A DNA stretch of 49,855 nt from NCBI GenBank assembly GCA_001275005.1, contig JWZX01002898.1, positions 1-49,855 of the forward strand, written 5' to 3'. Shown here in pieces: positions 13,486 to 48,932 of this stretch; position 1 is the stretch's first letter; every line of letters starts with the position of its first letter. This DNA is from Chrysochromulina tobinii (taxonomy: Eukaryota). A model generated the notes under the pieces. That model had not been told where the DNA came from, did not search any database, and was given only the letters and a program-made list of their open reading frames with translations. A program made the translations under genes and the position numbers.

Positions 13486-16400
13486 TCACTTTCTCGGCGA
13501 CGGCACAGACGTGCGGCGGTAGTCAGGGCGAGAGTCAGGAGCCTCAATCGGCGGCGGCGCGACCTTGCCGAGCTTGGCGAACGAGCCAGACGCCTCGGAG
13601 GCTGCACGCTTCAATGGCGTCGGCACGCCGCTGGGCCGCGCGGAGCTGGCGGCGGAGGTGGTGCTACTCCTACCGACGCTGCGCGGCGAGTCAGCGGACG
13701 AAAGCGTTGACGAAACCGTTGGACGCGGCGAGAGGGCGGGAGCGCGCGGCGAGAGCGCCGCAGAGGCGCCGGCGCCGCCCGTGAGCGCTGTACCTGTAGT
13801 GAGCGCGCCGCGGGGCGACTTGGTCGGCACCGGGATGCTGCTGGGCAGGCCGGATTTGGGTTTCGTCAACGGGCTGCCGCTGCTGGGCAGGCCGGATTTG
13901 GGTTTCGTCAACGGCTCCTTGGCAGCGCCGGAGCTTCCCACAGCCTGTGCGAGCGGCGATGGAGGTAGGCCCCCCTTGAGCAGGGCCGTCGTCTTGCTCG
14001 TCTTGAGATTGCTGCCGGAGAGCGCCGTCGCGGGCGGGCTGCCGGAGAGCGCCGTCGCGGGCGGGCTGGGCGAGAGCTCTTCGGGTTTCGTCACTGGCGG
14101 CTCTTCGGAGACGGCGGCGGCCTCCCTGGACCTCTGATCCGTATGGCGCCTCAGCGAGTCCGCATACGCGGCAGCTGCGGACGAGGAGCGAGTGAGCTTC
14201 TCAAGCGCACTCAGCGGCGCACTCGGCGGCGCTTGAGCGTCGTCTCGAGCGGGCTCGGACGAGGCGCGCTCGAGCGCCGTGGCGAGCTCCGCACCGCCGT
14301 CGCCTCGCAGCGCCCACGACGGCGCTCGAAGCGTCGTCTCGAGCGCACTCGGTGGTTTCGTGCCATCCAACGGCCACGCGCTCGCCACTCGCGGCGTCAG
14401 CGCGGAATCGTGCTCTCGCTGTGGGGAAAGCACCGATGCGGAATCGCGCTCTCGCTGTGGGGAAAGCACCGATGCGGAATCGCGCTCTCGCTGTGGGGAA
14501 AGCACCGTCGCAGCCCGCGCGCCTGTGGACGAACGAGCGATCGGGACGGCAGCGGCTAACTCACTCGCGGCGGTGGCGACGGCGGACAAGTCAGTCTTGG
14601 ACATCTCACGACAGATGAGCTCATCCCACGACAGAGAATCGTCGAGGCATGAGGGGAGGCATGAGGGGTGCCCTGCGGCCATTGCATCGGATGCGGCAGC
14701 GTCGGCAAACGCGTCCGATGGCCCAGGGTCGGCGCCTCGCCAGGATGCCAGGGCCCGCGCTGCCTCGCTGTCGGGCGCCGTCGCGGCGGGCACGCGCACG
14801 CCCGACGGCGGTGGCGCGCCCGCGCCCGTGCCCGCGCCCGTGCCCGCGCCCGTGCCCGCGCCGTAAATCTCCATGCGAGCTCGCATCTGCGTGGGCGCGC
14901 TCCTCGGGTCCTCACAGTGGCAAGGCGAGGGCGGCACGGGCGCGGTGGTGGGCGCGCGCCCTCCCTCGACGCCGCCCGCCGCGTCGCCCGCCGCATCGCC
15001 CACGCCATGGCCCATGCCATCGCCCAGCACGGCGCCTCGCGACCGATGGCTCGAGGCGGCCTCTTCGTCCTCCCCGAGCGGACGAAGCTGACGAAGCTGA
15101 CGAAGCGAGGCGGGCTCCCCATCCTTCGACTCGTCCTCCTCGTCGTTGACCAGGTCCTGTCGGGTTTGGAAGATCCACGGATCGCGCGGGTCGTCCTTGT
15201 AAATGAAACCGCCGCCCACACGCTGGTACGACTTGGACGGGGGCAGCAGAGGCGGCGGCAAGCTCGACGAGCGGATGGGCGAGGTTGCCTCACGGCTGAG
15301 GCACGAGGGGGGTCCGAGAGAGGGCGAACGCTTGAGAGAAGGCGGCGGCGACGCTTTCCCGCTCCCCTTGCCGCCGCCGTCCCCCTTTGCGCCGCCGCCG
15401 CCCGTGCCGGAGCCGCCGCCGCCCTTGTCGCCGAGGAGCATGCGCATGAGCTCGCGCTCCTCTTGCAGGTCGCGACGCGCGACGCGCTCAAGACGCGCGG
15501 CGTTCTCGAGCTGCACACGACGGCGCGCGTCCTCCTCCGCGGCCGCTCGCTGCAGCGCCTCCGCGGCCAGGGCGGCTTGGGCGGCCTCGCGCCGTCGAGC
15601 TCGCTCGAGCTCGAGCTGCGATTGGAGCTCCTCGAGCTGCGATCTCGCCTCGGTGCGCGCCGCGACCACGCGCTTCTCCGCTTCGTCAGCTTCGTCAAGT
15701 CGGAGCCTCCGCTCCTCCTCAATCGCGCCCAACGCGGCGCGCATCGCGCTCTCTGCCTCCCTCTCCACGTCGGCCACGCGCTGCTCGGCCGCGCGCTCAG
15801 CACGGCGCAGCTTGGCCGTGTCCGCCTCGAGCGCGTCCACGCGCAGGCGCAGGCGCGAGGCCTCCCGCAGCGCCTCATCGCGCTTGCGCGCCTCGCTCGG
15901 CAGCTCGGCCGCGACAGGCGCGAGGCGGTGGCGCTCCTCATCGCTCGCCTTGAGCGCAAGCTCGAGGCGCTTGCGCTCGTCGTCCGCGTACCTGTGGAAG
16001 GAGGTGATCAGAGGTCATCGGAGGTCATCGGAGGTCGTCGGAGGTCATCGGAGGTCATCAGAGGTCATCAGCGGTCATCGGAGGTCGTCGGAGGTCGTCG
16101 GAGGTCATCGGAGGTCATGTGAAGGTCATCAGAAGGTCATCAGAAGGTCATCAGAGGTCATCACCGATGCGCGTCCTCGAGCCGCCGGCGCGCCTCCTCG
16201 CTCGTGTGCAGCGCCGTCTCGAGCTCCGCTACCTTGGCGAGCGTCCGCTGCATCGCGCGCGCCCCCTCGTCAGCATGCACGCGCAGCTCCGCCGCCTCCG
16301 AGCGGACCCTCTCAAGGTCGCGCGCGTACCTGATGAAGGAGGTCATCAGAGGTCATCAGAGGTCATCAGAGGCCATCACGTACCCGCTCAGCTGGCGCTG

Positions 16401-17513
16401 CGCATCGGCCTAATGAAGGAGGTCATCAGAGGCCATCAGAGGTCATCCGAGGCCATCACGTACCCGCTCAGCTGGCGCTGCGCATCGGCCTCGAGCTGGC
16501 GGCTCGACTCGGCGAGCACGCGGCGCGAGCGGCCGAGCTCGCGATCCATCTCGTCCGCATGCCGCTGAGCTCGGCCGAGCTCGAGTTTCGTCGCGCTCAC
16601 CTGTGGGGTGAGGGCGCCGTGGTGGGCATTTGCATGCTGGGACTGGGAAGGGGCCGAGCTCGAGTTTCGTCGCGCTCACCTCGGCGCGTAGCTGGTCGAG
16701 CTCGTCCGTGCTCGCGGCGAGCTGCTCGCGGTGCTCGTGGCGCTCGAGATGGCGCTCGCGCTCGAGGGTCTGAGCTGCCTCCTCCGCGACGCGCGCGCGC
16801 CGGTTCGCGTGCTCCAGCTCGCCGCGCAGCGCCTGCAGCTCCGCCTCGTGACGACGCTCATCGGCAGCCATTGTGCGCCGCAGCTCCCGCTCAATCTCGC
16901 CACAGCGGTGCGCCACGTCGGCGATCTCGCGATCTCGCCCAGCTCGGAGCCGCTCGAGCTCGTCAGCCTCGCGCCCCTCGCGCTCGCGCAGCTTCTCCAC
17001 CTCGGCCGTCCGCTCGCGCAGCGCATGCATCAGCACCGCGACCTGCTTGTCGCGCTCGGCTGCCCGCGCCTCGGCCACAGCCACCTCGGCCTGCGCACGC
17101 TCGGCCGCTTCCAAAGCATCGCGCTGCGTCGCGGCCGCAAGGCGCGACTGCGACTCGAGCGCGCGAGCGCGCTGCGTCGCCGCGTCGATGCTCAGCCCGC
17201 GGTCGGCGAGCGCCGCATGCGCTGCCCCGAGCTGCACGGCGAGCTGGCGCTCGCGGTCGTGGCGTGCGGCGAGCTGATCCGCGACTACCTGCTGCGAGGC
17301 ACGTGCTGTACTCGCGGTGGCTTCAGCGGCCGCCGCTTTCTTCTCGGCGCTCTCCTTTTCGGTGCGCAGCCGCTCGACCAGCGCGTACAGCCCCTCGATC
17401 TCGTTATGGAGGGGCTCCGACAGCTGCGAGAAGCCGCCGCCCACCCGCCTCATGGCGGCGGGCGTGAGAGTCGGCCGCGAGCCGATGTAGTTCTTCGCAA
17501 AGGTGGGCATCAT
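13486..17513 (-). CDS. Large coiled-coil protein with low-complexity Ser/Pro/Ala-rich tail; 4 exons
   Basis: E/R/A/L heptad-rich ORFs join in frame through introns 16679-16601, 16463-16330 and 16164-15992; last exon 15991-13486. No recognisable enzymatic domain. Confidence 0.7.
15992..16463 (-). repeat. Intronic 10-mer satellite arrays (TGATGACCTC / CGATGACCTC on the gene strand) in two introns
   Basis: Tandem gaggtcatca/gaggtcatcg units on + at ~16001-16164 and ~16339-16458. Confidence 0.95.
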
Positions 17514-17730
17514 CGCAGCCATTCGCGACGGTGCCTATGACAGGGCACGGCAGCCACCGACGGAGGACCGGCGGGAAATGCCATGTGCGGTTCTTCAACA
17601 ATCCGATTCAAGTTCCGGACGAAACGCGCCGTTTTGGTCCCTTCGCATGCAATTGGGGGGAGGGGGGGGAGGGGGGGAAGATGGGATTTCGTAGGGAGGT
17701 GCGAGATCGAGAGCGACGCTAAGTCCACCC

Positions 17731-20700
17731 TCACTCACAGTGCCCCACGCGCATGATTTGAAAGCAGGGGCCGAGAGCCCAAATATCTTGAAACGTCCAT
17801 GGTGCGGCTGTGTACTTGGCATCGGATACATAGCCGCCCTCGCTCAACAGCAGCTCGGGGAAGGTCCAGCGCTGGTAACAGATGGCCGGGCCTGAGAGGT
17901 CGAGAACGCAGTCTAAATAGACTGGCGAAGGGCCTGCGCTCGCAAGAGCAGAAAACCAAAGCAGCGCTCCTCGCCGCGCCCACTGCGCCCGCCCCGTCTG
18001 CTGCGGCCGCATCCGCCGCGCCCTGTGCAGCAACTGCACCACCTGCAGCGGCGGCATCGGCAGGGGCAGCAACGATGGCAGCGGCCATCGCCGCAGCTGC
18101 ATTGTTCGCAGCGGCAACAGAGGCCGCTTGGAGATGCGCGGCGTTGGCCTGGAGGGCCTGCAGCTGCGCTGGAGGTGGCAACGGTGGTGGAGGTGGCAGT
18201 GGCGGCGGGGGAGGAGATGGCGATGAAGGTGCTGAGGGAGGAGGCGGTGGTGATGGTGCCAGCACATCCTCAAACTCAAACTCAAACTCATAGTTCGAGT
18301 CATCCGTCTGATGTTCCGCGTCTGAATCATCGTCTGATGGTGGTGGCGGTGGCATGGTGGGCATCCGCTGTGGAGGTGGTGGTGGTGGTGCGGTAGGACG
18401 ACCGCAGTCGTGGTGGAGTGTCATGTGCCCCCCCGGAGGAGTACACCAACACCCTTCGGATGGTTGCCCCGGCCTCCAGCAACATGTTGCTGAGAAGCCC
18501 TTTCCCCAGTCTGGAGGCCTCATGCACCTTCGCATCCAGCGAAAGGTACGCATTTGCTAAAGAGTATCTCCTGCCCCTTTTGAAGCTCGTCTTGTCCCTG
18601 CCACCGCCCGTCTCGCCACCGTCTCCACCCGTCAGCTTGTCAATGGTTGCTTCAAAATTAGAAACTGCTTGCGCATGCGCTGCCAAGTGGGCCGCTCGCT
18701 CAGCATCTGTCGCTCAGCATCTGTCAGCACCGGGGCAGCTGGCCCGGCGGCATCGCGCATCGGGTATGCGCACTATGCCATCTGCGGACTGTGCCTCATA
18801 TTGACGCCCATCACTAGCGACTGAATTATTAGCCCATTGCGAGATACGGTTTGCGAGCTCACCCGCACGGGTTCTTTGCCGGACAGTCACGTGCGGCGCG
18901 ATGATTTGGCAGATGTCGACGCATCCTCTTGGTGTTGTCGGCAGACCGGGGGGTGCGGGATGCAGGGGCATTGGGTTAAAAATCGACTCACCCTGAAATG
19001 CCCCGTGGGGCACCGTCGGGTTGGTCGCAGCGAAGCGGTGAAGGCGCCTTCCAAAGTTCGGACTGGTACGGTGTTGAAATCTCATCAGGGATGAGTCTCC
19101 ATGAGCGAAGCCAACACGAGAGGGGATCGCGGTGGAATGGGATGCCATCCACGCCGCCGCGCCAGTTTGATTGCCACGCTGGAATGATGCCACTGCCAAA
19201 GCTGAGGCATGGTCAGTTGGTACCTGTCCCGTATTGCCTGCACCCATTCGGGAGAGCCTTTGGCTGGATGGTCGCACAGAGACCCCCCTCTGTAGTAGAT
19301 TTCCTAGATTACGTTGGGGAAACCGTTGCCGCCTCGAACAAAGGCACCTCGGAACCACATCGTGTCCGCAGGCGCGATATCGTCAGCCACAAGATTACCG
19401 ATCGCGGAGTTGTCGGCCCCAGCAAAGAGCTCGTTGAAGGCCTTCACCCGCGCAACCGGGTCCTTGCCCTCCAAGGTGGCGATAAAGTTGTCCCCGATCG
19501 GGTTTGTTGAATAGCGAAGCGCGCGTCGAGAGGGCACGCCAAGGCAGCCGCTGCGACACGCGCGAGCAGGCCTTGTTGGTGAGCCTTCTCGAGGAGCGCG
19601 GCCGCGGCCTTCGACTTCGGGCTCTTGTTGAAGTGCGGATGCGTGACGGCGTTCGTGAATTTTTTCACCATCGTGGTCTGCGACTTACCGAGGTCGCCCA
19701 GTGCCTTCGCCTCGAGTAGCGGTTTGAGGAAGCCGACGATCTGCTGGAAGGTGAGCTTGGGCTGGAGAATTTCGGCCTGCTTCCAGGCCTCGTAGAGGTC
19801 GATCTCCTTGTTCTCGGCAAATGCCCGCTTGTAGCCCCCCCCAGCAGCCACCACTGCAGCGGCCGCCGCCTTGACCTCGGCCTCACCTGCACCCTCTTGC
19901 TCGGCTGTCTTCTTCAGCTCGCACGCACGCCGCTCCGCCTCCTTTGCGAGGCTCCGAGGCTGTGCGGGTGGGACTCGCTCATGTGACGCGCATGTTCGTC
20001 AGCCCGCTCCTGCGCCGCCCGCGCGGCCGCCACTGCAGCGGCGGCTGCCTCGGCGAACGAAAACATGTGGGTGAAACGGCCTGGGGTGAGATCGGCCATA
20101 CGGCCAAGTTCTCGTTGCTCAGCAAGCCCGCGTCCCCGGTGGATAGCCAGGCAAGCTGGCCCTGTCGCAGCCCCCCGAGCGTCGAACCGAAAGCAAGTTT
20201 GCCTCCGCGGCCTCCGCGGCCTTCTTGCCGCGTTTCATCTCGTCGCGCAATGCCCGGAGCCCGTGCTTGTACGCACGCAGCTCCTCGGCTGACAGCTGCG
20301 GCGTGGCGGCGACGGCACCGCCGGTGCAAGGGCGCCGGTGTCATCTCTGATGCCTGCTGCAGTGCAGCCTCAAACTCCTCACCGAGGATGCGAGGAATCA
20401 TAGGTGAGATGATTATCACCTGCGCGGGCGAGGCTGAGCTCGTCGAGCGTGCGCGCGCTCGGAGCGTCACCAGCGTGACCTGTGGAAGCCGACGGCCGTT
20501 GAGGATCAAGCGCAATAGTTCCTCGGGAGGGTGTATCGCCCCCGTCCCTGGACTGTTCTCCTGGAGTAGTCGGATGAGCGTCTTGGTGGTTGTGTACCGG
20601 GGAAGGTCTCTTTGCGAGACGCACCTTGGCGCCATTCCGTCTTAGCGCGAAAACGTCGGTCAAGATGCGTCTCGCTGAACCGATCTCGTCAAAACCGTAG

Positions 20701-21250
20701 AACTCAACCACCTTCTTCTTCTTCGGTCAAGATGCGTCACGGGCGGCTTGAGGCTCCTCCCGATCCTCCTTCGGATCCTCCAAGCTTGAGCGCTGGACCA
20801 CAGCCTTGTTCTTCACTGTTGCCTTGTCGTGCTCCTTGATCCCAGTGAACTGGTTCACGAGGTCGCTGTCGACCTGAGCTTTATCTAACTGCAGGTGCCA
20901 TCCCGGAGAGCGATAAGGCGCTTCGCGTAGCCCTTAGGGTCCGCGGCGAACTCGCCGAAGCCCATGCCGGCAATATGATGCAGCGTGAGCTCATCACACT
21001 TGGCGTGTGACCCCGCACTCTCGGAGCAGACGATCAGGGGGCCCAGATCCAGGCGGGCCTTAGAAGTCGCAAACAGCGCGAGCACGTCCGGCTGCATCTG
21101 CTCCCCGGTGAAGACCGCCATCATTGACTCGCTTCTGCGTTAGTGATTTGGATCGGCGATGCTTGAACACGAGCGCACGCCCTTGAGCGCACGACACCGC
21201 GTTCTCCCAAATCTCAATTGAGATTTTAAGGAATCGTGAAGACATATCAT
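17731..21250 (-). pseudogene. Multiply frameshifted coding remnant, probable decayed mobile or foreign insertion
   Basis: Protein-like minus-strand segments repeatedly switch frame or hit stops with no evident splice sites (e.g. 20885-21124, 19979-20635, 19444-19854, 19304-19537, 18327-18686, 17735-18553). Flanked by CTCA repeats on both sides. No transposase or RT motif recognised. Confidence 0.5.
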
Positions 21251-21290
21251 CTCACTCACTCACTCACTCACTCACTCACTCACTCACTCA
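21251..21290. repeat. (CTCA)10 microsatellite
   Basis: Directly visible. Confidence 0.98.
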
Positions 21291-21368
21291 AGAGCGTGGG
21301 ACGGCTCCCGTAGGAACTTTTCCCCACATAACCCGACGCGTTGTATTGGCGGCAAGGGCGTTCAGAAA

Positions 21369-23668: not shown

Positions 23669-26600
23669 ATGCTCGTCGCCGTCTTGCACGAGATCGTCGG
23701 CGTGGTGGGTGCCATTTTCGAGGCACTGATTGCGTTTGTGCACTCGTGTTGCGGCGAAATTTATCGGCGACGGCGACGGCCTCACGTGACAGTGCTCATG
23801 CTTCTGACCATCTGTGTGCTCATCGCGTGGCTGTCGGTGCAAACTTCTGCCGAAGTGGTGAGCACCGGAAGCCCCACGCCACCGCACCTAGAAGAGTCGG
23901 CGATGCTTCCGCCTAGCACTCCAGAGTCGCGACCATCGGTTACAAGCCGACATGGCACACACTCGCGTGTCGCCGTGACCATCCGATCGCTCCATACCAG
24001 CAAGTACTGGCAGCTGCAGAAGGAGGCCGACGGCACCAGGATGCGCCTCTCTGCCAGTGCGCCGCCGGAGCAGCGAGGGCTTGAGAGCACGGTCTTCCTG
24101 CTGGAGCGCGAGGGCGATCCCGAGAGCGGCGGCTGGGTGCTGCTCAGGTGGCTCAAGACAAGGCAGTTGCTCGAGGCGGTGCCGCCGGGCGTGCTGGGGC
24201 GCGAGGAGGATGCTTGGAGCGTGCGCCTCTCGGAGGCGCCGGCGGTGAACGAGCTGCACAAGCTCATCATCGAAGATGATGCGACGCACTCGCAGTCACA
24301 CATCTGGTCTGTCGGGCTCCACGGCTATCTCAACCAACTTGCCTCCTCAGACGACGTGGTCGGGCACGGCGACGCGTTCCCGCCGACGGTGGCCACCGAG
24401 CCGCCGCCTCGCGGCGCGGTGGCCGTCGAGCGGCTCACGAGCGGAGCCGCGTGGCTGATGGAGGCTCTCGAGCGCCGAGATGAGCAGCTCGACGCGCTGC
24501 AGGAGCAGCTTGATGCGGCGCGTGCCGAGCTGGCGGCGATCTCATCGAAGGTGAGGGGCACGCCCGGGATTGTGATGGATTGTGATGGATGGCCAATGGA
24601 GTGCCACTCGTGAGCTTCGTCAACCCAATGTACCAGGGGAGCGTTAGGGTCTCCTTGACTGTCCTCGATTGCCCTTGATTGAGTGCCACTCATGAGCTTC
24701 GTCATCTCCTCGGCACGCGCCGCGCAGTAGCCGACGCCATGATTGTCCTTGATTGACGAAGCTCATGATTGTCCTTGATTGCCGCGCAGGAGCCGACGCC
24801 ATGTTTGTCCTTGATTGACGAAGCTCATGATTGTCCTTGATTGCCGCGCAGGGGCCGACGCCATGATTGTCCTTGATTGACGAAGCTCATGATTGTCCTT
24901 GATTGCCGCGCAGGAGCCGACGCCAGGGCGACCGGTAAGCTCGCGCGTGAGCCCCACTGCCGCCGCCGCCGCCGCCGCCACCACCACCATCACCACCGAG
25001 GTCTCGACGGACGGGAACGGCGCCTCGACGATGCCCAGCGCGAGACCCTCTGCTGAGGGCTCTCTGGTGGCCGTTGGGACGACCGTTGGGACGGCCGTTG
25101 GGACGGCCGTTGGGAAGCTTGTCGAAGCGCGGACGGCGCCCCAGCGACGCACTCATGTGCACGTCGAATGCCCCGCGAGCGGCGCGAGCGGCGCGAGCGG
25201 CGCGGCGGCAGGCGCCGCTGCTGCCCCAGCCCGCCGCACGAGCGCGCGCAGGCACCGAGGACGAGGACGAGGGCGACTGCGCGAGGCGGCCCCGGGTGGC
25301 GCCCACGACAGCACCACGGACGTCGACGAGGGCGCCCAAGACGACGCGACCTTGAACGCCACGAGCGTGTGCTCTGCGGACGGCCTCCCGATATGGAGTT
25401 ACATGGCGGGGGCCGAGTATCTCAAGTTCGTGCGCGCGATCGCGAGCCGACTGCGCCTCGGCAGCGGCGACGCCCTGTTGGATCTCGCCGCCGGAGATTG
25501 CGGCGCCTCCTCGCTCGCCATCCAGCAACTCTATCGCGGCCGCCTCAAGTCCTTGGCCCTACTGCCGACGGAGGGCTCGGTGCACCTGTTTAGGCAGGCG
25601 TTGCATGCGAGGAGCACGCTGGGCACGCCGCAGGGGCAATTGCAGGGGCAGTTATTACAGGGGCCATTTGCGCCGCAGGTGAACACGTGTGTGGCGAGCG
25701 CCTCCAGGCATGCACGTGCTCACTATGACGCCCTCTCTCCACCCCGCAGGTGAACACGTGTGTGGCGAGCGCCTCCAGGCTCGACTGGCTGCCTCCCAAT
25801 AGCTTCGACGCGGCCATCACATTTGGCGCCTTTAGCATGCTTCGCTCGCGGGCTCGGCTGTGCTCCTCGTACCGCGCCGTCTTGCACACCCTCCGTCCCG
25901 GCGGCCGTTTCGTCATTGCGGACGTAGAGCATCCCGACCGCTGCTCGAGGCCGAGCAGCAGCAGTGGCCCCTCCTCGTCGTCCCTGGCCGAGGCCGCGTC
26001 ACTCAACGGTCAGCCCGATGAGTGCGCCAGCTGCCATTGGCGCGTGTCGGTACCCCTTGCGTTTTGGATTGCATGCACACCAATGGACCTCGAGGTCACC
26101 GTCAGCACCGTCGAGCACACCGACCTGCCGGGTACCTCCACGTATCCGTGCGCCTCGCGACACTTTGCGCTGCTCGCGCAGCGGGCCTCAACGCCGCACG
26201 AGGTGAGGGCCACCATCGAGGCAAGCTCGGAAGAGAGCAAAGCGAGCAAGGTGGCGGTGCTTCTCTCCCTGTCGGCGAGCGACACGGTCGACGGCGAGTT
26301 CCAGCAGCGTGTGCAGTATCTCAAGGAGGCCTCGATCGATAACAAGCGCATGTACTGCGGTCTGCACGGCTACTCGCTCGTGATCGGCGAGGAGCTCCAC
26401 CATGCGCGCGACAGGTGGGCGAGTCGATTGCCATGGATTGCCATGGACTGCCATGGATTGCCATGGATTGTCATGGATTGCCACGGATTGCCATGGATTG
26501 CCATAGATTGCCATGGATTGCCATGGATTGCCATGGATTGCCACGGATTGCCATGGATTGCCTCCCAATGGCCTCCCAATGGCCTCCCGATGGCCGCCCT

Positions 26601-27418
26601 TCTCTCATGAGCTCTACCCTGGGCGCGGCAGAGGCTGGGACAAGGTGAAGTTGCTGGCCGCGCAGCATGCCAATTACGAGTGGCTCCTGTGGGTACCGCT
26701 CGATGCCATCTTTGCTGATACGGCGAGCTCTCTCGATGCGCTCACCGACGACAAGCGCGCAAATATCATCGCGTTGCAGGACGAGAGTGGCGATGGGATG
26801 GGGACTGGGGTACTTTCCGAGCCCCTTCTCATCCGAGGCAAGACCGAATGGTCACGGCGGCTCCTCGAGCAGGTGCGCTGATGGCCGCTGATGGCCACTG
26901 ATGACCTCTGATGACCTCTGATGACCTCTGATGGCCGCTGATGACCGCGGAGGACCTCTGATGACCTCTGATGGCCTCTGATGGCCTCTGATTGCGTCCC
27001 TCATCACTCCTTGAGCAGTGGTGGGGCTTTTACACCGATGGCTTCGGCGGCAGTGACAGAGAGGCGCTTCAGCTCATTCTCTCGTCGATGAACGAAGAGG
27101 AGCGCGCGCGGCGCGTGCGCATCATCCAGCCCGACGCGGTCTTTAGCTCGGTGGCGTCGGTGGAACCGCTCGCCTGGGCGCTGCCCTACACGCCTCCGGC
27201 CTTGCTCGTCTCCTTTGATGATAGCACGAGCCTCGTCGGTGCCGCCGAGCGTGCCCCCAGCACCATCGCCTGCCCGATGCGGAGCAGCGACCGTCAATTG
27301 CTTCGGTGCCTGCATGCCTTCACCTCGCACCATCTCAAGGCGATTCAGGCCGCCGATGCGCGTTACCATCCGCCGGCCGTCTTCGACACGACCGAGCACG
27401 CCATCACGACGACCGAGG

Positions 27419-27457
<39 letters not shown>

Positions 27458-29566
27458 GCAGTGCGGAGAGGGCACAAGAGGCGGGCGTGGAGGACGAGGC
27501 AGCCCGGGCGCGCAACTCGAGCGGCATGGCCGGTGGCGGCGGCATGGCCAAGAGTAGCGGCGCCGAGATCGATCTGGCGGGCCCAGATCGATCTGGCGGC
27601 GCCGAGATCGATCTGGCGGGCCGTTGGCTCACCCCTCGGCTTTCCTCGGGGCGCCCGATGGGTGGAAGTCCCCACAGGGCGATGGCCTGCCCCGCCGCAC
27701 TCTCGCGCCTTGCTGATGACGTGTCCAATCGGCTCAAAAAGAGGCCGGGGCGCGGGCGGAGCTTCCCGACACGGCTCCTGAGCGCGGCCAAGGAGCTCGC
27801 GTTGCATCAGGCGGCCGTTGCGCGTGAGGAGCGTCTCAAGGTAGGGCTGAGCGCCGACGTGGGCGCGTCTGTATCGCCAGGGAGCCAGGGGGGCGAGGGC
27901 AAGGGCGTTGAGGACGAGGAGCAGGCGGAGGCGGCATGCGCCACCGGCAGCACCTGGCCGCTCATGCCGCCCGCGCTCCTCGCCAAGCACGTGCTGGCCA
28001 TCGGCACGCGCCTAGCGCTAGGAGAGGGGATGTCCGTCCTCGACGTTGGAGCGACCTGTGGCCACGCGCTCGCGATTCTGCAGGCGCGCTACCGCAACAA
28101 GCTGCGTGCGATGGGCGTCGATGGCTCGAAGGCATCCTTGCAATATGCGAGGCGCACGTGCCAAGGCACCTTTTGCGTCGGCGACGCACGCCAGCTCTCC
28201 GGGCTCGCCGACGAGAGCTTCGACGTCGCGTTCACCATGGACATCATGTCTCAGTTGACCAGCACCGGCGACGTGTGTGACGTGGCCCGTGAGCTCGCGC
28301 GCGTGGTGCGACCTGGCGGGCGCGCGATGATCGTGTCCGTGCCGAAATCCTCGTGCGCGACCACGCATGACGCGAGCTGGGACTGCCCGCACTGCTTTTG
28401 GCAGCTCAAGAGCATCGACAAGAACTTTTGGGCGGCGTGCTTGTCGCAGCCGCCGGCGAGCGAGGGCTCGAGGGGGGGGAGGAGCTGGGGGCTCGGGGGG
28501 GGGAGGAGCTGCTGGCGGCGCGTACCGCATTGAGATTGTCGCGAACACGGAGCTCTTCCCCTCGAAGCCCGGGAGCTATTGCCATCGAGAGCACTACTCC
28601 GTGCTGATCCATAAAAAGTCGCCCGCCAGCGTCTTCGTCTTCCAGCAGCCGAAGCCCAAACTCGCCGTCCTCACCGTTGCCAGTACGCCCCCTATTGGCG
28701 AGTACGGCAAGCAGAAGGTGCATTACCTCACAGAGCTCTCGATCGAGAACAAGCGGCAGTACTGCGCGCAGCACGGCTTCGAGCTTGTCGTCGCGCAGAA
28801 CCTCGCTCACGGGCGGACGGCGCGCTGGGATAAGGTGCGGCTCCTCGCTGATGACTACTGATGACCACTGGTGACGCCTGATGACCTCTGATGACTACTG
28901 GGATAAGGTGAGGCTCCTCTCAGGCTCCTCTCAGGCTCCTCTCAGGCTCCTCTCAGGCTCCTCTCAGGCTCCTCTCAGGCTCCTCTCAGGCTCCTCTCAG
29001 GCTCTGGCGCCGGTGGCTCGCGTATCGGTGCTCACTACGGCGCCTCGCGCTCCCCACAGGTGATGCTCCTGCGCCGGATGCTCGCTCACTACGAGTGGGT
29101 GCATTGGGTGGACCTGGATACGCTCTTCATGAACCTGAAGCGCTCGCCGATGGAGTTCCTCGACGGCGCCTTTGACTTGCATGTGGCCAAGGACGCCAAC
29201 GGGCTGAACACGGGCTCGTTCTACGTCAAGGCCTCACCGTGGTCACACGAGCTCCTTCGGCGCGTGTGGGAGCATAATGACGGCGGTCAGGGCGAGTCGG
29301 ACCAGCGCTCGTTTGCACACGTGATCGCGCAGCTGTCCGGGCGCGAGCGGACAAAACACGTCAAGTACTACGCGCAGAAAATCTTCAACGAGTACCCCGA
29401 CCCGATCGTTTCTTTCAAGGGATGGCGCGGCCACTTTCGCGAGGGCGATTACCTGCTGCATTTCCCGGGTACCTTTTGCGGACTCTCGCCGAGCGGCGTG
29501 TACACGGACATGCACCTGCTCTCGTGCTTGCACCGCTTCACGATCCACTTTGTGGCGGCCATGTAG
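23669..29566 (+). CDS. Membrane-anchored protein with two tandem [class I SAM methyltransferase + GT34 (GMA12/MNN10-like) glycosyltransferase] units; 6 exons
   Basis: N-terminal RRRRR plus TM helix. MT motifs LLDLAAGDCG/SFDAA/LRPGGR and VLDVGATCG/SFDVA/VRPGGR. GT34 motifs KRMYCGLHGY..WDKVKLL..YEWLLWVPLDAIF and NKRQYCAQHGF..WDKVMLL..YEWVHWVDLDTLF..NGLNTG..DQ..GDYLLHFPG. Introns 24551-24913, 25679-25749, 26415-26631, 26873-27018, 28835-29059. One frameshift in the G-run at 28472-28479. Confidence 0.8.
24715..24925 (+). repeat. ~62-nt tandem repeat containing the 3' splice site (four CGCGCAG copies)
   Basis: AG at 24727, 24789, 24851, 24913, each followed by x-x-G-CCGACGCCA. Confidence 0.9.
26426..26561 (+). 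repeat. Intronic (GATTGCCATG)n 10-mer satellite
   Basis: About 13 tandem units, directly visible. Confidence 0.97.
26878..26993 (+). repeat. Intronic (TGATGRCCTC)n 10-mer satellite
   Basis: Directly visible. Confidence 0.95.
28848..29004 (+). repeat. Intronic compound satellite: TGATGAC-type 10-mers then (AGGCTCCTCTC)n 11-mers
   Basis: Directly visible; the 11-mer begins inside a copy of the donor junction. Confidence 0.95.
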
Positions 29567-30058: not shown

Positions 30059-30097
<39 letters not shown>

Positions 30098-35230: not shown

Positions 35231-37273
35231 TCACTGTCCCGGCTCCTCCGGCGCCAGCTTGATCATGTCGTCGATGCGCAGCACGGTAATGGCGGCTTCG
35301 GTGGCGAATTGGATCATCTTCACCTTGGAGAGGGCGGGCTCGATGATGCCGGCCACCAAGTTGTTCTGCACCTTGCCCGAGATGCAGTCCATCCCGTAGT
35401 GTCTGTACTCCGTCTTGGTCGGATCGGTCTGCGACGTGTTGTGATAGGCGCGCAGCTTCGCCACCATGTCCGACGCGTCCTGCGCCGCATTCACGGAGAG
35501 CTGCTTCGGGATCACAAGCATGGCGGTGGCGAACTCGGCAATTGCGAGCTGCTCACGTGAGCCGAGCGACGTCGCAAAGTTCTCGAGGTGGATTGAGAGG
35601 GCCGACTCGACGCAGCCGCCGCCCGGCACGACGCTCGCGGACTCGAGCGCGCGCTTGATAGCGCACAGGGCGTCATGCAGCGAGCGCTCGACCTCGTCGA
35701 GCATGTGCATGTTGGCGCCGCGCAGCAGCACGGAGCACGCGTTCGTGCTCTGGCCACCCTTGATGATCAGGTGGTCATCGTCGGCGATCCGCTCCTCGAT
35801 CACCTCGTCCGCCGTGCCGAGCATCTCGGGGGTGAAGGACTCATTGCCCTCCATGTCGGCGAAGGTGATCATGAGCGTGCCGCCAGTGAGCTTGGCGATC
35901 CGCTTCAGGTCCTCCTTCTTCACGCGGCGCACGGCGAGCGCGCCCGCCTCCACAAAGTACTTGATCGCCATGTCGTCGATGCCCTTGGACGTTAGGATGA
36001 CGTTTGCGCCCGCGTTGAGCAGCAGCTGAATGCGGTCGCGGGTGATGTCCGACTCCTTCTGGCGAATGTCCTCGAGCTTCTTGGGGTCGGTCACCACGAC
36101 CGAGACGCCCATCTGCATCTTGGACTTGCGCAGGTCAATGTCGAGCAGCGCGATCTTGGCGTTCTTCACAGTGCGCGGCATGCCCTGGCCCGCCCGCCCG
36201 CCGTACATGACGTAACCGTTGAAGAGCTGCGAGTCCTTAAAGGACTTGCCGTGCTGCTTGATGATGCCGACCGACTTGATCGGGTAGACGGTCTTGCCGG
36301 TCTCGGGGTTGATGGTCTTGATGGCGGACATCGCGTCGATCGCCAGGTTGGCGAAGAACTCGGACTGCTGCCCGAAGATCTTCGATGACAGCGTCGTCTT
36401 CGCGATGTTCAGCGCCACGTCACGGCCGAGCTTGTCCGTCTTGACCGCCAGATTCTCCTTGATGAACTTGATCGACTCCTTCATGGCGAGGCGGTAGCCC
36501 GACATGATCGAGGTCGGGTGGATCGAGTTCTTGACCAGCTCGTTGGCGCGCTTGAGCAGCTCCGCGGCCACGATCACGACCGAGGTGGTGCCGTCGCCCA
36601 CCTCCTTGTCCTGAATCTCGGACAGCTGCACAAGCACACGCGCCGCCGGGTGCTCCACCTCGAGGTTGGCCAGGATGGTGGCGCCATCGTTGGTGATGGT
36701 GACCTCGCCGAGGTCATCCACGAGCATCTTGTCCAAACCGATCGGGCCGAGTGAAGTCTTGACGACGTTGGCGACCGAGAGTGCGGCCGTCACTGCGGTG
36801 GGCGTGGCCGAGAGTGCGGGCGCGTGTCAGCGAGAGCGGTCGCAGACGGTCGGAGGTGGGCGGCAGGCCGGGCGACGCCCGGGCTGACGCAGGCCATGCC
36901 ATGCGCTGCGGTGGCCAGCAGCCCAATAGTGCGTTCGCTGAGCTCGCAGCCAGCGCTGCATGCGCAGCTGCACTGGCAGGCCGGCGTCGCTGCGGCTCAA
37001 ACGCGCGCTTGCAGCGAGCTCCAGATGGCATCGGCGTACCATTCTGCGTGCGGATCTCCTGGCCAGAGGTGCGCTCGCCCTGCCACACAGCACAGCACAC
37101 AGCGTGGCGGCGGTCAGGGCGGGCTCAGCAAGGCGTTGACGCGACCCATGCCGCTCGCCGTGCCACCGGGCTGCAGCGTCTCTCCGCTTAGCGAGACGCG
37201 ACGCGGAGCAGCAGCGCACATTGAGGTACAGCTGGTCCTTGTGGCCAGGCGGGGCGTTCGGAGCACCCATCAT
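35231..37273 (-). CDS. TCP1: T-complex protein 1 subunit alpha (CCT1); 3 exons
   Basis: [57 protein letters not shown]. Exons 37273-37220, 37079-37040 ([13 protein letters not shown]), 36792-35231 splice in frame. Confidence 0.97.
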
Positions 37274-37594: not shown

Positions 37595-37661
37595 AAGCGA
37601 AACCGTCATCCAAGTTTGACCCTCCCTGGGGTTGAGGACAGCCCTTTGGGCGGGCGCGGGA

Positions 37662-43021: not shown

Positions 43022-44179
43022 ATGGAGCCCGCTATCGGCGCTCTCAAGAGGCCGCTCGACGAAGGCGGAAGCTTTATCGACGTACCGCCTCCGAAGCGTG
43101 CGGCCGATGGTGCACAGGGCGGGGCGCCAGATGCGCAAGGCAGCGCAAGCAACTCGATGGCGGCAAACTCCGTGGCCGCCGCGAGCACAAGCCTGGAGAA
43201 GAGTCATGGCAAATCCAAGGGCAAAGCGAAAGCCGCGGCAGCGGTGCAGCCACCGCCCGCGACCACCGCAAGCAAAGATCAGGAAACGAGCGCCAAGGCA
43301 GGCAAGCGCAAGTCGCCCAGTGGCGAAGCGGCCGCTGGCCCATCCACGGCCGCGCCCGCGCCGCCGCCTGCCAGATCGCGAGGCAAGGGCTCGCTTGGCA
43401 AGGGCGTGGCAGACGAGGCCGCGGTGGCCATGATCGGAGGCGGAGGCGGCAAGGCCGTGGCCGAAAAGCCGCCTCCGATCACGGAAGCGGCGGCTTTGGC
43501 CGCGAGCGCAGCGTTGGCGGGCAGCTGCGCGCGGCGGCTGACGCGTGGCGTCGTCCCTGCGCTCAAGGCTGAGCTCGTGAACCAGATGGCGTCGGCCCCG
43601 ACGGCGCCGATGGAGGGATGGCACCAGAAGGATGGTGATGACGACAGCATGGCGCACATCACGACATGGGAGGGCTGGGAGAGCCGACTAAAGGAGGAGC
43701 GCGTGCCCTCGTACGTCCTCGAGGAGCTGTGGAACCTCATCCGATCTCTCGTCGACGAGATCAGCCAGCAAGCGATGCAGCCCCCGGCGATGGCACGCAC
43801 GCTCGGATTGCCCGACATGGCGCTCGAGCTGCCCGGCACGGCGCCGTCCTCCTCCGCCTCGGCACCAGCGGCGCCGGCGGCGCCCGGCACGGCGCCCGGC
43901 ACGGCGTCAAATGCGCCCGCCACGGCGCCCGGCGGCTTCGGCACCGCGCCCGGCACGGCGCCCGACGCTCCATCGGCAGCCCCTGGGTGGAAGGATGGCG
44001 TCGTCGCGGGCGCGAGGGCTCCCGAGCCCACCGCTGCCCCTTGTGCGGCGCAATCAGTCGCAATCAGTCGCAATCAGTCGCAATCTGCCCCTTGTGCAGC
44101 GCCGCCCGTCTCGGCGCCGCAGCTCGCAGCCGCAGCACTACCACATGTACCACCACCACCAGCAGCAGTACTACCAGCA

Positions 44180-44219
<40 letters not shown>

Positions 44220-47200
44220 CGGTGGCCGCACCTTGCGAGCCGTCGCACTGCGCGTCCGCTATGGGCATGGCTTTCGAGCAGTGCATGCAACCGTCGCAGT
44301 GCATGCAACCGTCCGCTATGGGCATGGCTTTCGAGCAGTGCATGCAGTGCGACGGTTGCATGCACTGCGCGAAGCATCGAGTGCATGCAGCCGCTACGGG
44401 CACGGCCTTCGAGCGCAGCGCCAACGGGCAAGCGAGTAACGGCTGCATGCAACCTGCCGGTACCGAGGGCGCCAACGGCGGCGTGCGGCTGCCCCCTGGC
44501 TGCATGCAACCGGACGCGTACGACCTGAGCGAGCGCCTCCGCCGGTTGCTGCCCTTAGCTAAGAAGCCGCTCTCGTTCGGGCAGCTGTATTACCTTCTAC
44601 TCGGCACCCTCGTCGGCTATAAGAATCGTGTGATGCCTCGTACGATCGTGCCAGAGGGCCCATTGACGAAGCAGGCCCTCATCTCCGCCAATCTCGCCCA
44701 CCATGCCTACTCGCTGGGCGCGACAGTGCACAAGAGGCTTGATGAAGCCTTCCTAGAGCAGGTGCGCTGATGGCCTCTGATGGCCACTGATGGCCACTGA
44801 TGGCCTCTGATGGCCACTGATGGCCTCTGATGACCTCTGATGACCACTGATGACCTCTGATGGCCTCTGATGACCTCTGATGACCACTGGCTCACCTTGC
44901 CTAATCTGGCCACTGGCTCACCTTGCCTAATATGGCTCCCCTTGCCCCTTGCCCCGACCCGACCCGAGCAGTGTGCGCGTACCGCCCGAGCTTTGCGACT
45001 CGACCATCCCGTGAGCGGCGGCGCCATCCCCCTTCGGAAAGCACTCAAGGCTGTGCTCGAGACGGCGCCTTTCTCGCAGTACGAGGTGATGACGAAGCAG
45101 GCGTACAACCTGCTCATCGGCCAAAAGAAGCTGTGGGTGAGCGGCGAGCGTGAGCAGCTGCTACAGACCCTGTGCACACGGGATGGGCGCACTTGGATCA
45201 CACTCGACTTCTTCGTCCAGGTGCGATCGCCCCTGATTGCCCTATGATTACCCTCTGATTACCCTCTGATTAGCCTCTGATTGCCCACTGATGGGCACTG
45301 ATCTGAGCGCCGCTGATCACGCTCGAATGCATCGTGCGCAGCACACGTCGTGCAACGCGTCAGAGACATACGTGCTCGTGCACGCCCCCACGCGGAAGAT
45401 CGTGGGGCTTGCAGCCGTCTCCGACTTCCAGACGCCCTGGACGGCGGGCCAATTCCATCACATGGCGCATGCATGCCAGGAGGACCGCATGTTCTTCTTT
45501 GGGCGCAAGTCTGAAAAGGAGCTCACCCCCAAGGTACCATCCGACACTGATTGCCAAAGGAGCTGACCCCCAAGGTACCATCCGATTCTGATTGCCTCTG
45601 ACTTAAAAGGAGCTGACCCCCAAGGTACCATCCGATTCTGATTGCCTCTGACTTAAATGGAGCTGACCCCCAAGGTACCATCCGATTCTGATTGCCTCTG
45701 ACTGCTTCTGATTGCGTCTGAGTGCGTCCCTCATCAGGTCGCAATCGACCTGTCGGCCTCATTCGAGGGCGGCACGCGCTGGACAAGCCACTTCCACATG
45801 CCCACCCTCCTCTCGGTCGACATCATCTGCGTACAACCGGGCGTTCGAGGGCTAGCGCACTTGCTGCTCGCGCACATCTGCTGCCTCACCTCGTCCTTCA
45901 CCGCCGACCGCACCCATTGGCTCTTCGACATCTCCGGGCGCGAGAGCAACCTTCGCATGGTCCGCTTCACGCAAGGGATCGGTGCGTCGCACATGCAGAC
46001 CTTTGATGGCCTTTTGATTGCCTTTTGTTGGTATGCAGACCTTTTGATGGGTACATGGTCCACTTCTGATTACCTTTTGATTACCTTTGGATTACCTTTT
46101 GATGGGTACACGCTCCACTTCACACAGGTGCGTCGCACATGCAGACCTTTGCCGACGAGGCTCGCTCCGAAGGGTACGTAGGCGTCGAGGGCGACGATCC
46201 GTCCATTTACTGGACGTACAAGACCGCCAACGGCTTCGGGAAGGACGACGGGAGCACCGCAGGCGTGTACGCGGTCGACGTGGAGCTCGGCAGGTGAGTG
46301 TCGTTCATGATTGCCTCTTGATGACCTCTTGAGTGCCTCTTGAGTGCCTCTTGAGTGCCTCTTGATTGCCTCTTGATTGCCTCTTGATTGCCTCTTGATT
46401 GCCTCTTGATTGCCTATCGATTGCCTCTTGATTGCCTCTTGATTGCCTATTGATTGCCTCTTCTGAGTGCCTCTGATTCCTCACGCGGTCGATGTGGACC
46501 ATGTCGGCAGTACCATCGGCACCGAACACCCGGCCGTGCTCTTCAATGACCGCGTGACCCAGAGCGACTTTTTGCGAGGGGGCAAGAACTGCTCGTACTT
46601 TGCAGTCGCGCCACTCGAGGTGTCGAGGACGAAGCTCACCCAGCAGCTCGAGCAGCTCCGCGCCCAGGTGTGTGTCGTTCATTGCTGCCTCTTGATTGCC
46701 TCTTGATTGCCTCTTGATTGCCTCTTGATTGCCTCTTGATTGCCTCTTGATTGCCTCTTGATTGCCTCTTGATTGCCTCTTGATTGCCTCGAGCACGAAG
46801 CTCACCCAGCAGCTTGGGCAGCTCCGTGACCAGGTGCTTGGGACGGCGCTCGGATGCGCCCACTGATTGCATGCACGCGCTCACAACGGCGCCCCACCCC
46901 TCTTCCCCACAGGTGCTCGCCGAAGAGCTCGAGGCGGCGCTCGAGATCAAAGCTCGCGAGCTGGGGGCCACCGAAGCGCTCGCAGCCGCTGCCGCTGCGC
47001 TCGAGCGCCGCCTCGAGCACCCGAGACTCCCGTGGCAACACGCCCAATACGGCGCCGCGGGCGCGCCCGATGCGGCGCTCGATGTGGACCCGAGCATGTT
47101 GAACTCGCTGCTCGCCTCCCCCGAGATCTCCCCCGAGATCGACTCCTCGCCGAAGCCGCCGCTACCGCCACTCAAGGGCGTCCTGCCTCCTTGCATGCAA

Positions 47201-47305
47201 ACGCTCACAACGGCGCCGCACCCCACTGAGAGCGACCTGCCGCCCGTGGCGAGGGCAGCGCCTAGCGTGACGGCGCCACACTCGACGAAGCTTGACGAGG
47301 CTTGA
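43022..47305 (+). CDS. Large protein with low-complexity N-terminus and a probable GNAT-fold acetyltransferase domain; 7 exons
   Basis: Introns 44762-44971, 45221-45341, 45534-45737, 45982-46127, 46294-46510, 46668-46912 give a continuous frame. YVLV..KIVGLAAV, LSVDIICVQPGVRGLAHLLL (motif A-like), NLRMVRFTQGIG (motif B-like). Confidence 0.65.
44768..44890 (+). repeat. Intronic (TGATGRCCWC)n 10-mer satellite
   Basis: About 12 tandem units, directly visible. Confidence 0.97.
45516..45702 (+). repeat. Four tandem copies of the exon-3 end plus 5' splice site (GGAGCT(C/G)ACCCCCAAG|GTACCATCCGA)
   Basis: Copies start near 45518, 45559, 45609, 45659. Confidence 0.95.
46308..46790 (+). repeat. Two intronic (GATTGCCTCTT)n 11-mer satellites (~46308-46462 and ~46686-46790)
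   Basis: Directly visible; same unit in two neighbouring introns. Confidence 0.97.
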
Positions 47306-47554
47306 CGATGCTTTTCACCACCTGCATGAACCTTCCACACCGTTCACCGCCCCTTTAGCCATTCAATGGAGATCCGTAGACCAGTGAAAGGCCTTTCCGA
47401 GGGCTAGTATTCCTTTCAGTTACAGAAAATATTGGGATTCGGGGCGTTGTGTTGAACACTCGCCAATCTCTCGCATGGAATTCACCTTGCCGAAGGCGAA
47501 GGCGAGCGCCCGGCCAGCCTCGACGCGCCTGAGCTTGTGAGGCGACGAGGTGGC

Positions 47555-48932
47555 ATGGCTTGGCTATGGCCCACCCCGTGGACGCAGGCTTCCGCCGAGG
47601 ACTCCTTCAAGGCCACGCCTCGGTCCGTCTCGGGTGCGTCGACGCCTCGGCTCGGGGATATCTCACGGAATACATCACCACTCTCAGAGACCAGCAGCCC
47701 TCGCTCGGATATCAGCCAGCGAGCAGACCGGCTCCCACCCGCACTTGTGGGCTCCGTGTCCGACTGGCTCGAACGCGTGAAGAAGGGTTACGGTCGCTTT
47801 GCGGTCGCCTTCGAGGCGCTCGGCATCGAGGACACCAACGACATCCACAACATCGATCGAACCATCTTTGAGCATGTCGAGACGCTGTTGCGCGACGGTT
47901 GCGGCGCCAAGTCCATGCACCTCAAAAACATCCACATCGCCCTGCTCGAATACGGGTGCAACCTGCGCACCGCAAGTGAGGAAGCCACAGCGGCCGAGGG
48001 CGGCGTGCCTTTCCTCGCGCTGAAGGACGCCAAAGGGCGGCTCGCGCCAGTCGGTGCCAGCCATGCAGCCGCTGCCAGCGGCTCTGGAGCGGAGCTCGAG
48101 TCGGCTGCTCCACATGTGGCCTCAGTGGCTACGAACGTGCCTCCGATGCCGCCGCCACGGCCGCTGCTGCGACAATCTGATTCGAGCGTCGCGCGCGCGC
48201 AGCAGTGGGATGAAGTCGTGTCGGCGATGGCCGCGCAGGCGACGGGCAGCGGGCTGTGGAATCGGCTCGCGCGCGGCGTCGAGACGGAGCAGGAGCTCCT
48301 AGACTTCTTTCGTCGGCGCCAGGTGATGACCACTGGTGATGACCTCTGATGACCCATGATTGCCTCCGATCGGCCTTGAATTGCGAGAATTCGACGCGTG
48401 GCTCGAGCAGGTGATGGCCGCTGATGACCTCTGATGACCCCTGATTGCCTCCGATCGGCCTCTAATTGCGAGAATTCGACTCGAGCAGGCCTCCGAAAAG
48501 GGCGGCAAGATCCTGCACATCGCGTCTGCGGTCAAGGTCGTCAACAACGCGGCGCTGTCGCACTTTGCAGCCACGAAGCACCTGCATCTGCACCCGATGA
48601 AAGCGCACAAGACGGGCGACACGCTCCTCTTTCACGGCTGCCCGCAGGTGGCGGCTGTGAACATCCAGGCCGATGGGCTCAAGATCGGCTTCGCATCGAA
48701 CGGCATGCTCGGCCGCGGCTTGTACGGTGCACCCGACCCTCGCAAGAGCCTCCAGTACTGTAAGGACTCGCCCAATGGCCGATTCATGTTCCTGTGCCGC
48801 TTCAACCTCAAGGAGGCGAAGCACGCCGGGCCGGAGACCAAGCACCGCAACTCGATCTTTGACGAGTTCTGCATCTACGACGAGAAGCATGTGGTGGTCC
48901 TGTGGATGCTCAAGCTCAAAGAGCCTCGATGA
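47555..48932 (+). CDS. Sterile-alpha-motif (SAM) domain + PARP-like ADP-ribosyltransferase; 2 exons
   Basis: SVSDWLERV..YGRFAVAFEALGIE (SAM domain); LLFHG, GMLGRGLYGA, KSLQYC, MFLCRFNL, DEFCIYD (H-Y-E triad positions). Intron 48323-48488 splices in frame (RRRQ-ASEKGG). Confidence 0.8.

What the first reader, a model, noticed from the sequence alone, without database searches (positions are those of the whole stretch)
15992..48488. Introns that contain copies of their own exon junctions: candidate intron birth or remodelling by local duplication
Seen in about 12 introns of five genes. (a) Intron start equals next-exon start: 16679-16601 (28 nt GTGAGCGCGACGAAACTCGAGCTCGGCC), 25679-25749 (31 nt, both copies preceded by CCGCAG), 45982-46127 (24 nt), 41537-41412 (GTGCGTCGC). 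(b) Intron end equals previous-exon end: 26415-26631 (19/23 match ending CAG), 26873-27018 (11/12), 46294-46510 (ACGCGGTCGAyGTGGA..TCGGCAG). (c) Internal copies of a donor or acceptor: 16463-16330, 24551-24913, 28835-29059, 45534-45737, 46668-46912, plus an internal duplication in 48323-48488. Established: duplication of an AG|GT proto-splice site and staggered-break repair are proposed intron-gain routes with few clear natural examples. The copies range from exact to diverged, suggesting a continuing process. The TCP1, FCP1, MFS and PKS introns lack the pattern.
Basis: partly seen in the sequence, partly recalled or inferred. Interest (0 to 1): 0.85.

Follow-up and report, generated by a model that had tools for sequence, protein, structure and literature searches.

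The report
Young introns bracketed by duplicated exon
In an alga that is likely a haptophyte, many introns carry copies, up to 37 bases long or more, of the exon sequence next to them and are missing from related species, which suggests that new introns are still being made, likely when DNA repair pastes in pieces of existing introns and duplicates the landing site.

Summary
The duplications are real. 10 of 24 window introns carry a junction-anchored exon copy (score ≥10), against 0.4% of cross-intron pairs and 6.7% of mock introns in exons. They occur only in introns built from satellites or a shared acceptor cassette (11 of 16, against 0 of 8 plain introns, score ≥9). It is not pure tandem duplication: foreign intron parts sit between the copies and supply the other splice site. 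For 11 of these 16 introns, an apparently genomic relative lacks the intron. Intron 25679-25749 is absent from 14 of 26 scorable same-species sequences that keep the next intron, a likely polymorphism; assembler collapse is not excluded. The same footprint lies antisense and in frame inside an exon (44034-44102). Internal junction copies differ between strains, so they remodel existing young introns. Best reading: repair-type templated insertion with a variable target duplication creates introns (0.55); rival: a retro-mobilised introner (0.25). Repeat-flanked intron gain is known (Daphnia, introners); the length range and modular inserts differ. RNA support is indirect and covers four of these introns. 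This scan noted a similar 15-base footprint elsewhere in this genome (e1-2577349).

The parts
15992..16164 (-). A3: satellite intron in coiled-coil gene A (17516 to about 13400); no long junction copy
   Evidence: frame opens with donor at 16164; score 2; no orthologue reaches it
16330..16463 (-). A2: satellite intron; 80-nt unit (28 nt of exon end plus the intron body) duplicated; 5-6 nt junction overlap
   Evidence: absent from orthologue P0084; L003 has 80 nt more here
16601..16679 (-). A1: 28-nt copy of next exon start supplies the donor, followed by a 51-nt acceptor cassette
   Evidence: absent from P0084; present in 14 of 14 scorable same-species ORFs
24551..24913 (+). D1: intron in glycosyltransferase-34/methyltransferase gene D; 62-nt acceptor-spanning unit x3.3 and 18-19 nt inverted copies
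   Evidence: strains L002 and L004 carry an extra donor-spanning copy and fewer acceptor units
25679..25749 (+). D2: 37-nt duplication around a short acceptor cassette; likely presence/absence polymorphism; 71- and 72-nt alleles
   Evidence: absent from L008, P0006, P0008, P0009, P0011, P0014
26415..26631 (+). D3: donor plus satellite insert; acceptor lies in a diverged 23-nt copy of the previous exon end
   Evidence: 19/23; absent from L008, P0006, P0008, P0009, P0013; P0012 has an insert about 2 nt away
26873..27018 (+). D4: donor plus satellite insert; acceptor in an 11/12 copy of the exon end; shares 6 exon and 14 intron letters with F1
   Evidence: absent from L008, P0006, P0008, P0013
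28835..29059 (+). D5: satellite, internal donor copy, 11-nt satellite grown from that copy, acceptor cassette
   Evidence: absent from L008, P0006, P0008
41412..41537 (-). E1: 9-nt start copy and internal 11-nt exon-end copy
   Evidence: no RNA cover; no orthologue searched
44034..44102 (+). Exonic insertion with the same footprint: 18-nt duplication (17/18) 51 nt apart around an antisense 10-nt satellite, in frame, no splice sites seen
44762..44971 (+). F1: donor plus satellite intron, 6-nt junction overlap
   Evidence: RNA contig pieces begin at 44966
45221..45341 (+). F2: satellite intron, 3-nt overlap
   Evidence: RNA contig arithmetic; frame
45534..45737 (+). F3: three internal donor-spanning copies; only the outer donor fits the RNA contig
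   Evidence: P0087 runs across the site
45982..46127 (+). F4: 24-nt copy of next exon start supplies the donor; satellite insert
   Evidence: present in 6 of 6 same-species ORFs; P0087, P0113, P0127 run across the site
46294..46510 (+). F5: donor plus 11-nt satellite; acceptor in a gapped copy of the exon end; 5' end shared with F6
   Evidence: P0113 and P0127 run across the site
46668..46912 (+). F6: nested: satellite, 45-nt copy of exon end joined to 5 letters of next exon start, then acceptor cassette
   Evidence: 40/45; P0113 runs across; P0127 departs about one codon earlier
48323..48488 (+). G1: internally duplicated satellite intron in a PARP-domain gene; junction copy only 7-8 nt

Best explanation
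These are young, lineage-specific introns, likely made when repair synthesis at a break copies a ready-made piece of another intron into an exon and re-copies 3-37 bases of the target, so that one splice site comes from the insert and the other from the duplicated exon. Two mirror forms occur: the insert brings the acceptor (a shared cassette or satellite ending in AG) and the exon copy brings GT, or the insert brings GT plus satellite and the exon copy brings AG. The satellites are arrays of a branch-point-like pentamer (CTGAT, TTGAT, CTAAT) on the intron's sense strand, mostly without AG, which would make the insert spliceable at once. The same process later hits existing junctions and piles up donor or acceptor copies inside the intron. 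Shown: the anatomy, the enrichment, absence in relatives, strain differences. Inferred: direction of change (gain), the repair mechanism and enzyme, the branch-point role, and that the intron-less D2 sequences are true alleles.
For: Enrichment over two nulls and confinement to satellite or cassette introns, 11 of 16 against 0 of 8, Fisher p=0.002. Exact overlaps range from 3 to 37 nt, unlike the fixed 3-8 nt of transposase introners. Inserts are shared modules, not whole-intron copies: best end-to-end identity among 276 intron pairs is 0.68, while ends match (D4/F1, F5/F6, A2/A3, A1/D2/D5/F6); the cassette also occurs in L001 and a plain satellite intron in L010; the satellite is about 3000 times single-copy depth in DNA run X1. 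Gene D is one 1611-aa ORF in genomic L008; relatives of genes A, D and F leave homology at their own positions. D2 is absent from 14 of 26 scorable ORFs, all 14 reading into unspliced D3. The footprint occurs antisense in an exon, and D1 holds inverted 18-19 nt copies, as expected of DNA-level template switching. Exons also carry many local duplications. Fill-in at staggered breaks makes small tandem duplications in mammalian cells (PMC8355091, abstract).
Against: No enzyme or mutant evidence. A retro-mechanism predicts the same variable duplication; the A1 insert is 51 nt, as is the one implied in e1-2577349 (66 minus 15), which hints at a unit-length element. Three relatives seem to have introns within 3 nt of window introns (P0010 near D2, P0012 near D3, P0127 near F6; protein only), so some sites may be older and have slid. 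Most relatives are judged genomic only because their ORF runs into intron-like text; only L008 is shown at DNA level. No intron-less D2 allele was recovered as DNA: of 7 loci from the metagenome scan, three same-species loci carry D2 and one ends inside the repeat. Flanking variants do not separate the two D2 classes. Five of the 16 introns have no orthologue test.
Confidence: 0.55

Rival explanations
1. A short non-autonomous element (introner), moved by a retrotransposon's reverse transcriptase priming at a nick, inserts with long variable target duplications; satellites and inner duplications are secondary.
For: Variable duplication length and inserts with a fixed AG end and variable 5' end (A1 51 nt, D2 about 35-40 nt). 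Cassette in 4 of 24 introns and in L001. Non-LTR introners exist (about 5% of classified cases, PMC12130899); marine Chrysochromulina MAGs carry introners.
Against: Mirror-image class with a fixed 5' end, inverted copies in D1, low end-to-end identity, several different insert modules, no poly(A) tail seen, no Rfam match for the cassette. Six ORFs from 18330-20641 gave no Pfam match; the genome could not be searched for a reverse transcriptase.
Confidence: 0.25
2. The introns are old and local duplication only remodels them; relatives lost them.
For: Internal junction copies vary between strains. Three near-coincident intron sites in relatives. Exons also duplicate locally (6.7% background).
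Against: Several relatives at 43-82% identity lack the introns and have their own elsewhere; in A1, D2 and F4 the donor itself is the exon copy; the 8 plain introns show no such copies.
Confidence: 0.09
3. The duplications, or the intron-less D2 form, are assembly artefacts.
For: Assemblies of what looks like the same strain differ by 80 nt in A2 and 124 nt in D1 (L003 against window). The 37-nt D2 repeat is longer than common starting word sizes of assemblers (recalled), whereas the never-missing A1 and F4 repeats (30, 25 nt) are shorter.
Against: Single DNA contigs with no differences span E1 and F4 (that run may be the window's source). Other strains carry A1, D2 and F4 with their own substitutions. 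The window's own allele keeps D2 in two records of 10 contigs each. The intron-less form is on 11 distinct contig lengths up to 13.6 kb. An artefact would affect copy numbers and the polymorphism claim, not the existence of the duplications.
Confidence: 0.07
4. Pure tandem duplication of an exon segment holding AG|GT, later overwritten by satellite growth.
For: D2 is half exon copy, with the same six letters before both copies; D5 grew a satellite from its junction copy.
Against: The non-exon part of D2 and A1 is a cassette shared with unrelated introns and with L001, although the copies are still 100% identical to the exon.
Confidence: 0.04

Closest known systems
Daphnia pulex neointrons attributed to staggered double-strand-break repair (PMC4202315; passages)
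   Same: New introns share a direct repeat with an adjacent exon, segregate in populations, and gain further internal repeats by repeated events.
   Different: Daphnia exon-shared repeats are 4-12 bp and the insert source is mostly unknown; here exact overlaps reach 25-37 nt, internal copies 45 nt, and inserts match modules of other introns.
Introners that take one splice site from the target duplication: Chrysochromulina sp. MAG family 5 (bioRxiv 10.1101/2022.06.06.494994; passages); Polarella and Symbiodinium classes (bioRxiv 10.1101/2020.10.14.339549; parts 1-2 of 4)
   Same: One site carried by the insert, the other recruited from duplicated exon; precise mRNA restoration; repeated intron sequence.
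   Different: Those have fixed 3-8 nt duplications per family; here the length varies from 3 to 37 nt, whole introns are at most 68% alike, and both polarities coexist.
Intron gain by tandem genomic duplication of AGGT (reviewed in PMC3443670; passages)
   Same: Duplicated exon sequence supplies a splice site.
   Different: The intron body here is foreign, repeated intron sequence, not exon copy.
10-11 bp tandem repeats in Emiliania huxleyi introns (recalled; paper not held; search found 0)
   Same: Intronic 10-11 nt satellites in a haptophyte.
   Different: No link to intron birth recalled or found.

Membership tests
DNA-transposon introner | Fixed-length target-site duplication | tested here: not met
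   Exact overlaps 3-37 nt over 16 introns
DNA-transposon introner | High end-to-end similarity among introns at unrelated sites | tested here: not met
   Best 0.68 among 276 window pairs; window only, so rare families could be missed
DNA-transposon introner | Terminal inverted repeats | tested here: inconclusive
   None seen by eye at intron ends; only D1 was scanned, and its inverted copies are internal
DNA-transposon introner | One splice site carried, one recruited from the duplication | tested here: met
   A1, D2, F4 (donor recruited); D3, D4, F5 (acceptor recruited)
Non-LTR/SINE-type introner | Variable-length duplication with one fixed insert end | tested here: inconclusive
   Fits the cassette introns, not the donor-carrying class
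Non-LTR/SINE-type introner | Structured-RNA head or partner reverse transcriptase | tested here: inconclusive
   No Rfam hit in window, L001, L010; no genome held
Break-repair neointrons (Daphnia type) | Direct repeat shared with adjacent exon above background | tested here: met
   10 of 24 against 0.36% and 6.7% nulls
Break-repair neointrons (Daphnia type) | Absent from outgroups | tested here: met
   11 of 16 introns lack a counterpart in at least one apparently genomic relative; 5 untested; 3 near-coincident sites
Break-repair neointrons (Daphnia type) | Segregating intron-less allele | tested here: inconclusive
   D2 absent in 14 of 26 ORFs, not seen as DNA or reads; A1 14 of 14 and F4 6 of 6 present
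Break-repair neointrons (Daphnia type) | Origin at a repaired break | not testable with these tools
   Needs mutants or induced breaks
Tandem genomic duplication | Intron body is a copy of exon sequence | tested here: not met
   Foreign cassette or satellite lies between the copies

The most novel reading that the evidence does not exclude
This alga has a self-feeding intron factory with no transposon: abundant intronic satellites and an acceptor cassette serve as templates during repair, land anywhere with 3-37 nt duplications, become introns when orientation and a GT or AG allow, stay as in-frame coding inserts otherwise, and are still segregating in natural populations, where the long repeat also allows exact loss.
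Probability: 0.35. Interest if true: 0.88.

Novelty: new variant of a known kind. Interest (0 to 1): 0.7.

Why it matters
The source of most newly gained introns is an open question (PMC4202315 and PMC3443670, passages). Here source modules, target duplication, a wrong-orientation exonic counterpart and a likely segregating allele sit within 35 kb of a cultured alga, so repair-driven and retro-driven models can be told apart with one genome and population reads. Screens for introners look for whole-intron similarity and would miss modular inserts: C. tobinii appears once in that screen's supplement, in the list of genomes examined (file cut when stored). Long exact junction repeats also mislead read mapping and gene prediction.

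Tried and rejected
No whole genome is held, so no genome-wide count. Cassette and satellite patterns in viral and prokaryote collections gave 1, 0, 0, 2 and 0 loci; only L001 and L010 were informative, and L010's satellite intron has just a 5-nt overlap, so a long duplication is not obligatory. RNA junctions for genes A and D remain unobserved. Gene E had no RNA cover in two runs, which is no evidence either way. Run X21 (share 0.03) gave only short pieces that span no tested intron. L006 and L007 lack the gene D introns but also lack their own species' intron seen in P0014, so they may be transcripts and were not counted. P0003, P0115-P0118 are uninterrupted but of unknown origin; used only to confirm the spliced protein. 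Linkage of D2 state with flanking variants: none diagnostic. One protein search timed out. Literature: 'Chrysochromulina, intron, introner' 3 papers; 'haptophyte, spliceosomal intron, intron gain' 15, none on this by title or abstract start; variable-length duplication plus target-primed reverse transcription plus intron gain, 1, off topic; two searches gave 0. The library lacks most subscription journals; bioRxiv supplements and the 2025 introner datasets were not seen and may list these introns.
Full report
Setting. The window is eukaryotic, about 64% G+C, with GT-AG introns. No genome is held.

Observation. All listed duplications are in the sequence. A junction-anchored score reaches 10 or more in 10 of 24 introns, in 0.36% of 552 intron-exon cross pairs, and in 6.7% of 1500 mock introns placed in stretches treated as exon. 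The high exon background shows that local duplication is common here, yet introns exceed it (p about 1e-6). At score 9 or more the signal is in 11 of 16 introns made of satellite or cassette and in 0 of 8 plain introns (Fisher p=0.002).

Are they spliced as drawn? RNA contigs show joints for both TCP1 introns. For gene F the evidence is arithmetic: one contig has pieces 44966-45217 at its letters 182-433 and 45736-45980 at 627-871, an offset change of 325, which equals F2 (121) plus F3 (204). So F3 uses its outer donor, not one of the three inner copies; the piece ends fit removal of F1 and F4. Orthologues are collinear across the A1, A2, D1-D5 and F2-F5 junctions. Genes A, D, E and G have no RNA confirmation.

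Anatomy. Between the copies lies sequence foreign to the exon. In A1, D2 and F4 the exon copy supplies GT and the insert ends in AG. In D3, D4 and F5 the insert starts with GT and the exon copy supplies AG. Inserts are drawn from a small kit: 10-11 nt satellites and an acceptor cassette that ends A1, D2, D5 and F6 and recurs in L001. Introns share ends but not whole length (best 0.68). D4 and F1, in different genes, share 6 exon letters and the first 14 intron letters, as expected if a broken end found its template by microhomology (inference). Satellite units hold a branch-point-like pentamer on the sense strand in genes on both strands, and most lack AG (consensus units; the D5 unit is an exception); the branch role is inferred. 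F6 is nested: its inner copy joins exon end to next exon start, so a cassette intron probably came first and a satellite insert with a 45-nt duplication second.

Age. Genomic locus L008, with neighbours on both sides, encodes gene D as one 1611-aa ORF. P0006, P0008, P0009, P0011, P0013 and P0014 cross D positions and leave homology at sites of their own. P0084 crosses A1 and A2 and then runs into what reads as its own satellite intron. P0087, P0113 and P0127 cross F3-F6 between them. So 11 of 16 introns lack a counterpart in at least one apparently genomic relative; A3, E1, F1, F2 and G1 are untested. Against this: P0010, P0012 and P0127 seem to be interrupted within 3 nt of D2, D3 and F6, judged from protein alone.

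Polymorphism. Of 29 listed near-identical gene D ORFs (29 of 36 cluster members), 12 carry D2, 14 lack it and 3 cannot be scored. All 14 read into unspliced D3 and two begin inside D1, on contigs of 11 distinct lengths up to 13.6 kb, so they are genomic. L004 ends on the last base of the first repeat copy, as a fork would. But I recovered no intron-less DNA, flanking variants are not diagnostic, and same-strain assemblies differ in repeat number elsewhere. I put a real polymorphism at about 0.7. A1 (14 of 14 scorable, 15 of 23 listed) and F4 (6 of 6) are always present.

Remodelling. Strains L002 and L004 have an extra donor-spanning copy at the start of D1 and fewer acceptor units than the window. 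Class (c) copies therefore come and go in existing introns; their numbers are assembly-sensitive.

A natural control. At 44034-44102, in gene F's first exon, an 18-nt duplication 51 nt apart brackets an antisense satellite and stays in frame. The event thus occurs without making an intron. D1 also holds inverted 18-19 nt copies. Both favour a DNA-level, splicing-blind process filtered by selection, though retro-insertion can also take either orientation.

Comparison. It works like Daphnia break-repair neointrons (PMC4202315 passages) and like introners that recruit one splice site from the duplication, but fails the fixed-length and whole-intron-similarity tests for transposase introners and the body test for pure tandem duplication (PMC3443670 passages). 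My searches found no paper on this in haptophytes, within the library's limits. This scan noted a 15-base footprint in another piece of this genome and read it as a mobile family (e1-2577349); I confirmed only that a shared cassette exists, and weight that reading at 0.25.

Verdict. Real feature; young introns about 0.85; repair-type templated insertion 0.55; new variant of a known kind; interest 0.70.

Noticed in passing
window 47194-47230 (+) and 30680-30710 (+): Acceptor-cassette look-alikes inside open coding frames (last exon of gene F; gene at 29770-31876); exonised inserts or unrecognised introns.
   Followed up: partly
window 14402-14507 (-): In-frame 36-nt tandem triplication in gene A's last exon whose unit contains an acceptor-like pyrimidine run ending in AG; a possible pure tandem-duplication intron in waiting.
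   Followed up: no
window 28464-28511 (+): Duplicated 24-nt G-rich unit shifts gene D's frame relative to orthologues; assembly error in G runs, a damaged allele or a GC-AG intron.
   Followed up: partly
L002 4111-4182; proteins P0001, P0054-P0066: A 72-nt allele of intron D2 has no stop and keeps the frame if unspliced, which could ease its establishment; the window's 71-nt allele does not.
   Followed up: partly
window 17700-21300: Stretch of short ORFs without Pfam match; L004 lacks about 720 nt (19900-20623) of it; possibly a mobile remnant.
   Followed up: partly
window 23670-29563 (+): Gene D is a conserved membrane-anchored-looking fusion of glycosyltransferase family 34 and methyltransferase domains (Pfam on orthologue P0003).
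   Followed up: no
window 43022-47310 (+): Gene F has a well-conserved C-terminal domain (65-93% in relatives) with no Pfam match, and its relatives each show different intron positions.
   Followed up: partly
L001 2880-3059; L009 1850-2024; L010: Algal-type intron DNA at the end of a phage contig and in two bacterial MAGs: likely chimeras or contamination.
   Followed up: no
window 36793-37039 (-): Plain TCP1 intron holds a 12-nt copy of next-exon bases 7-18 near its 3' end; perhaps an old, decayed footprint.
   Followed up: no
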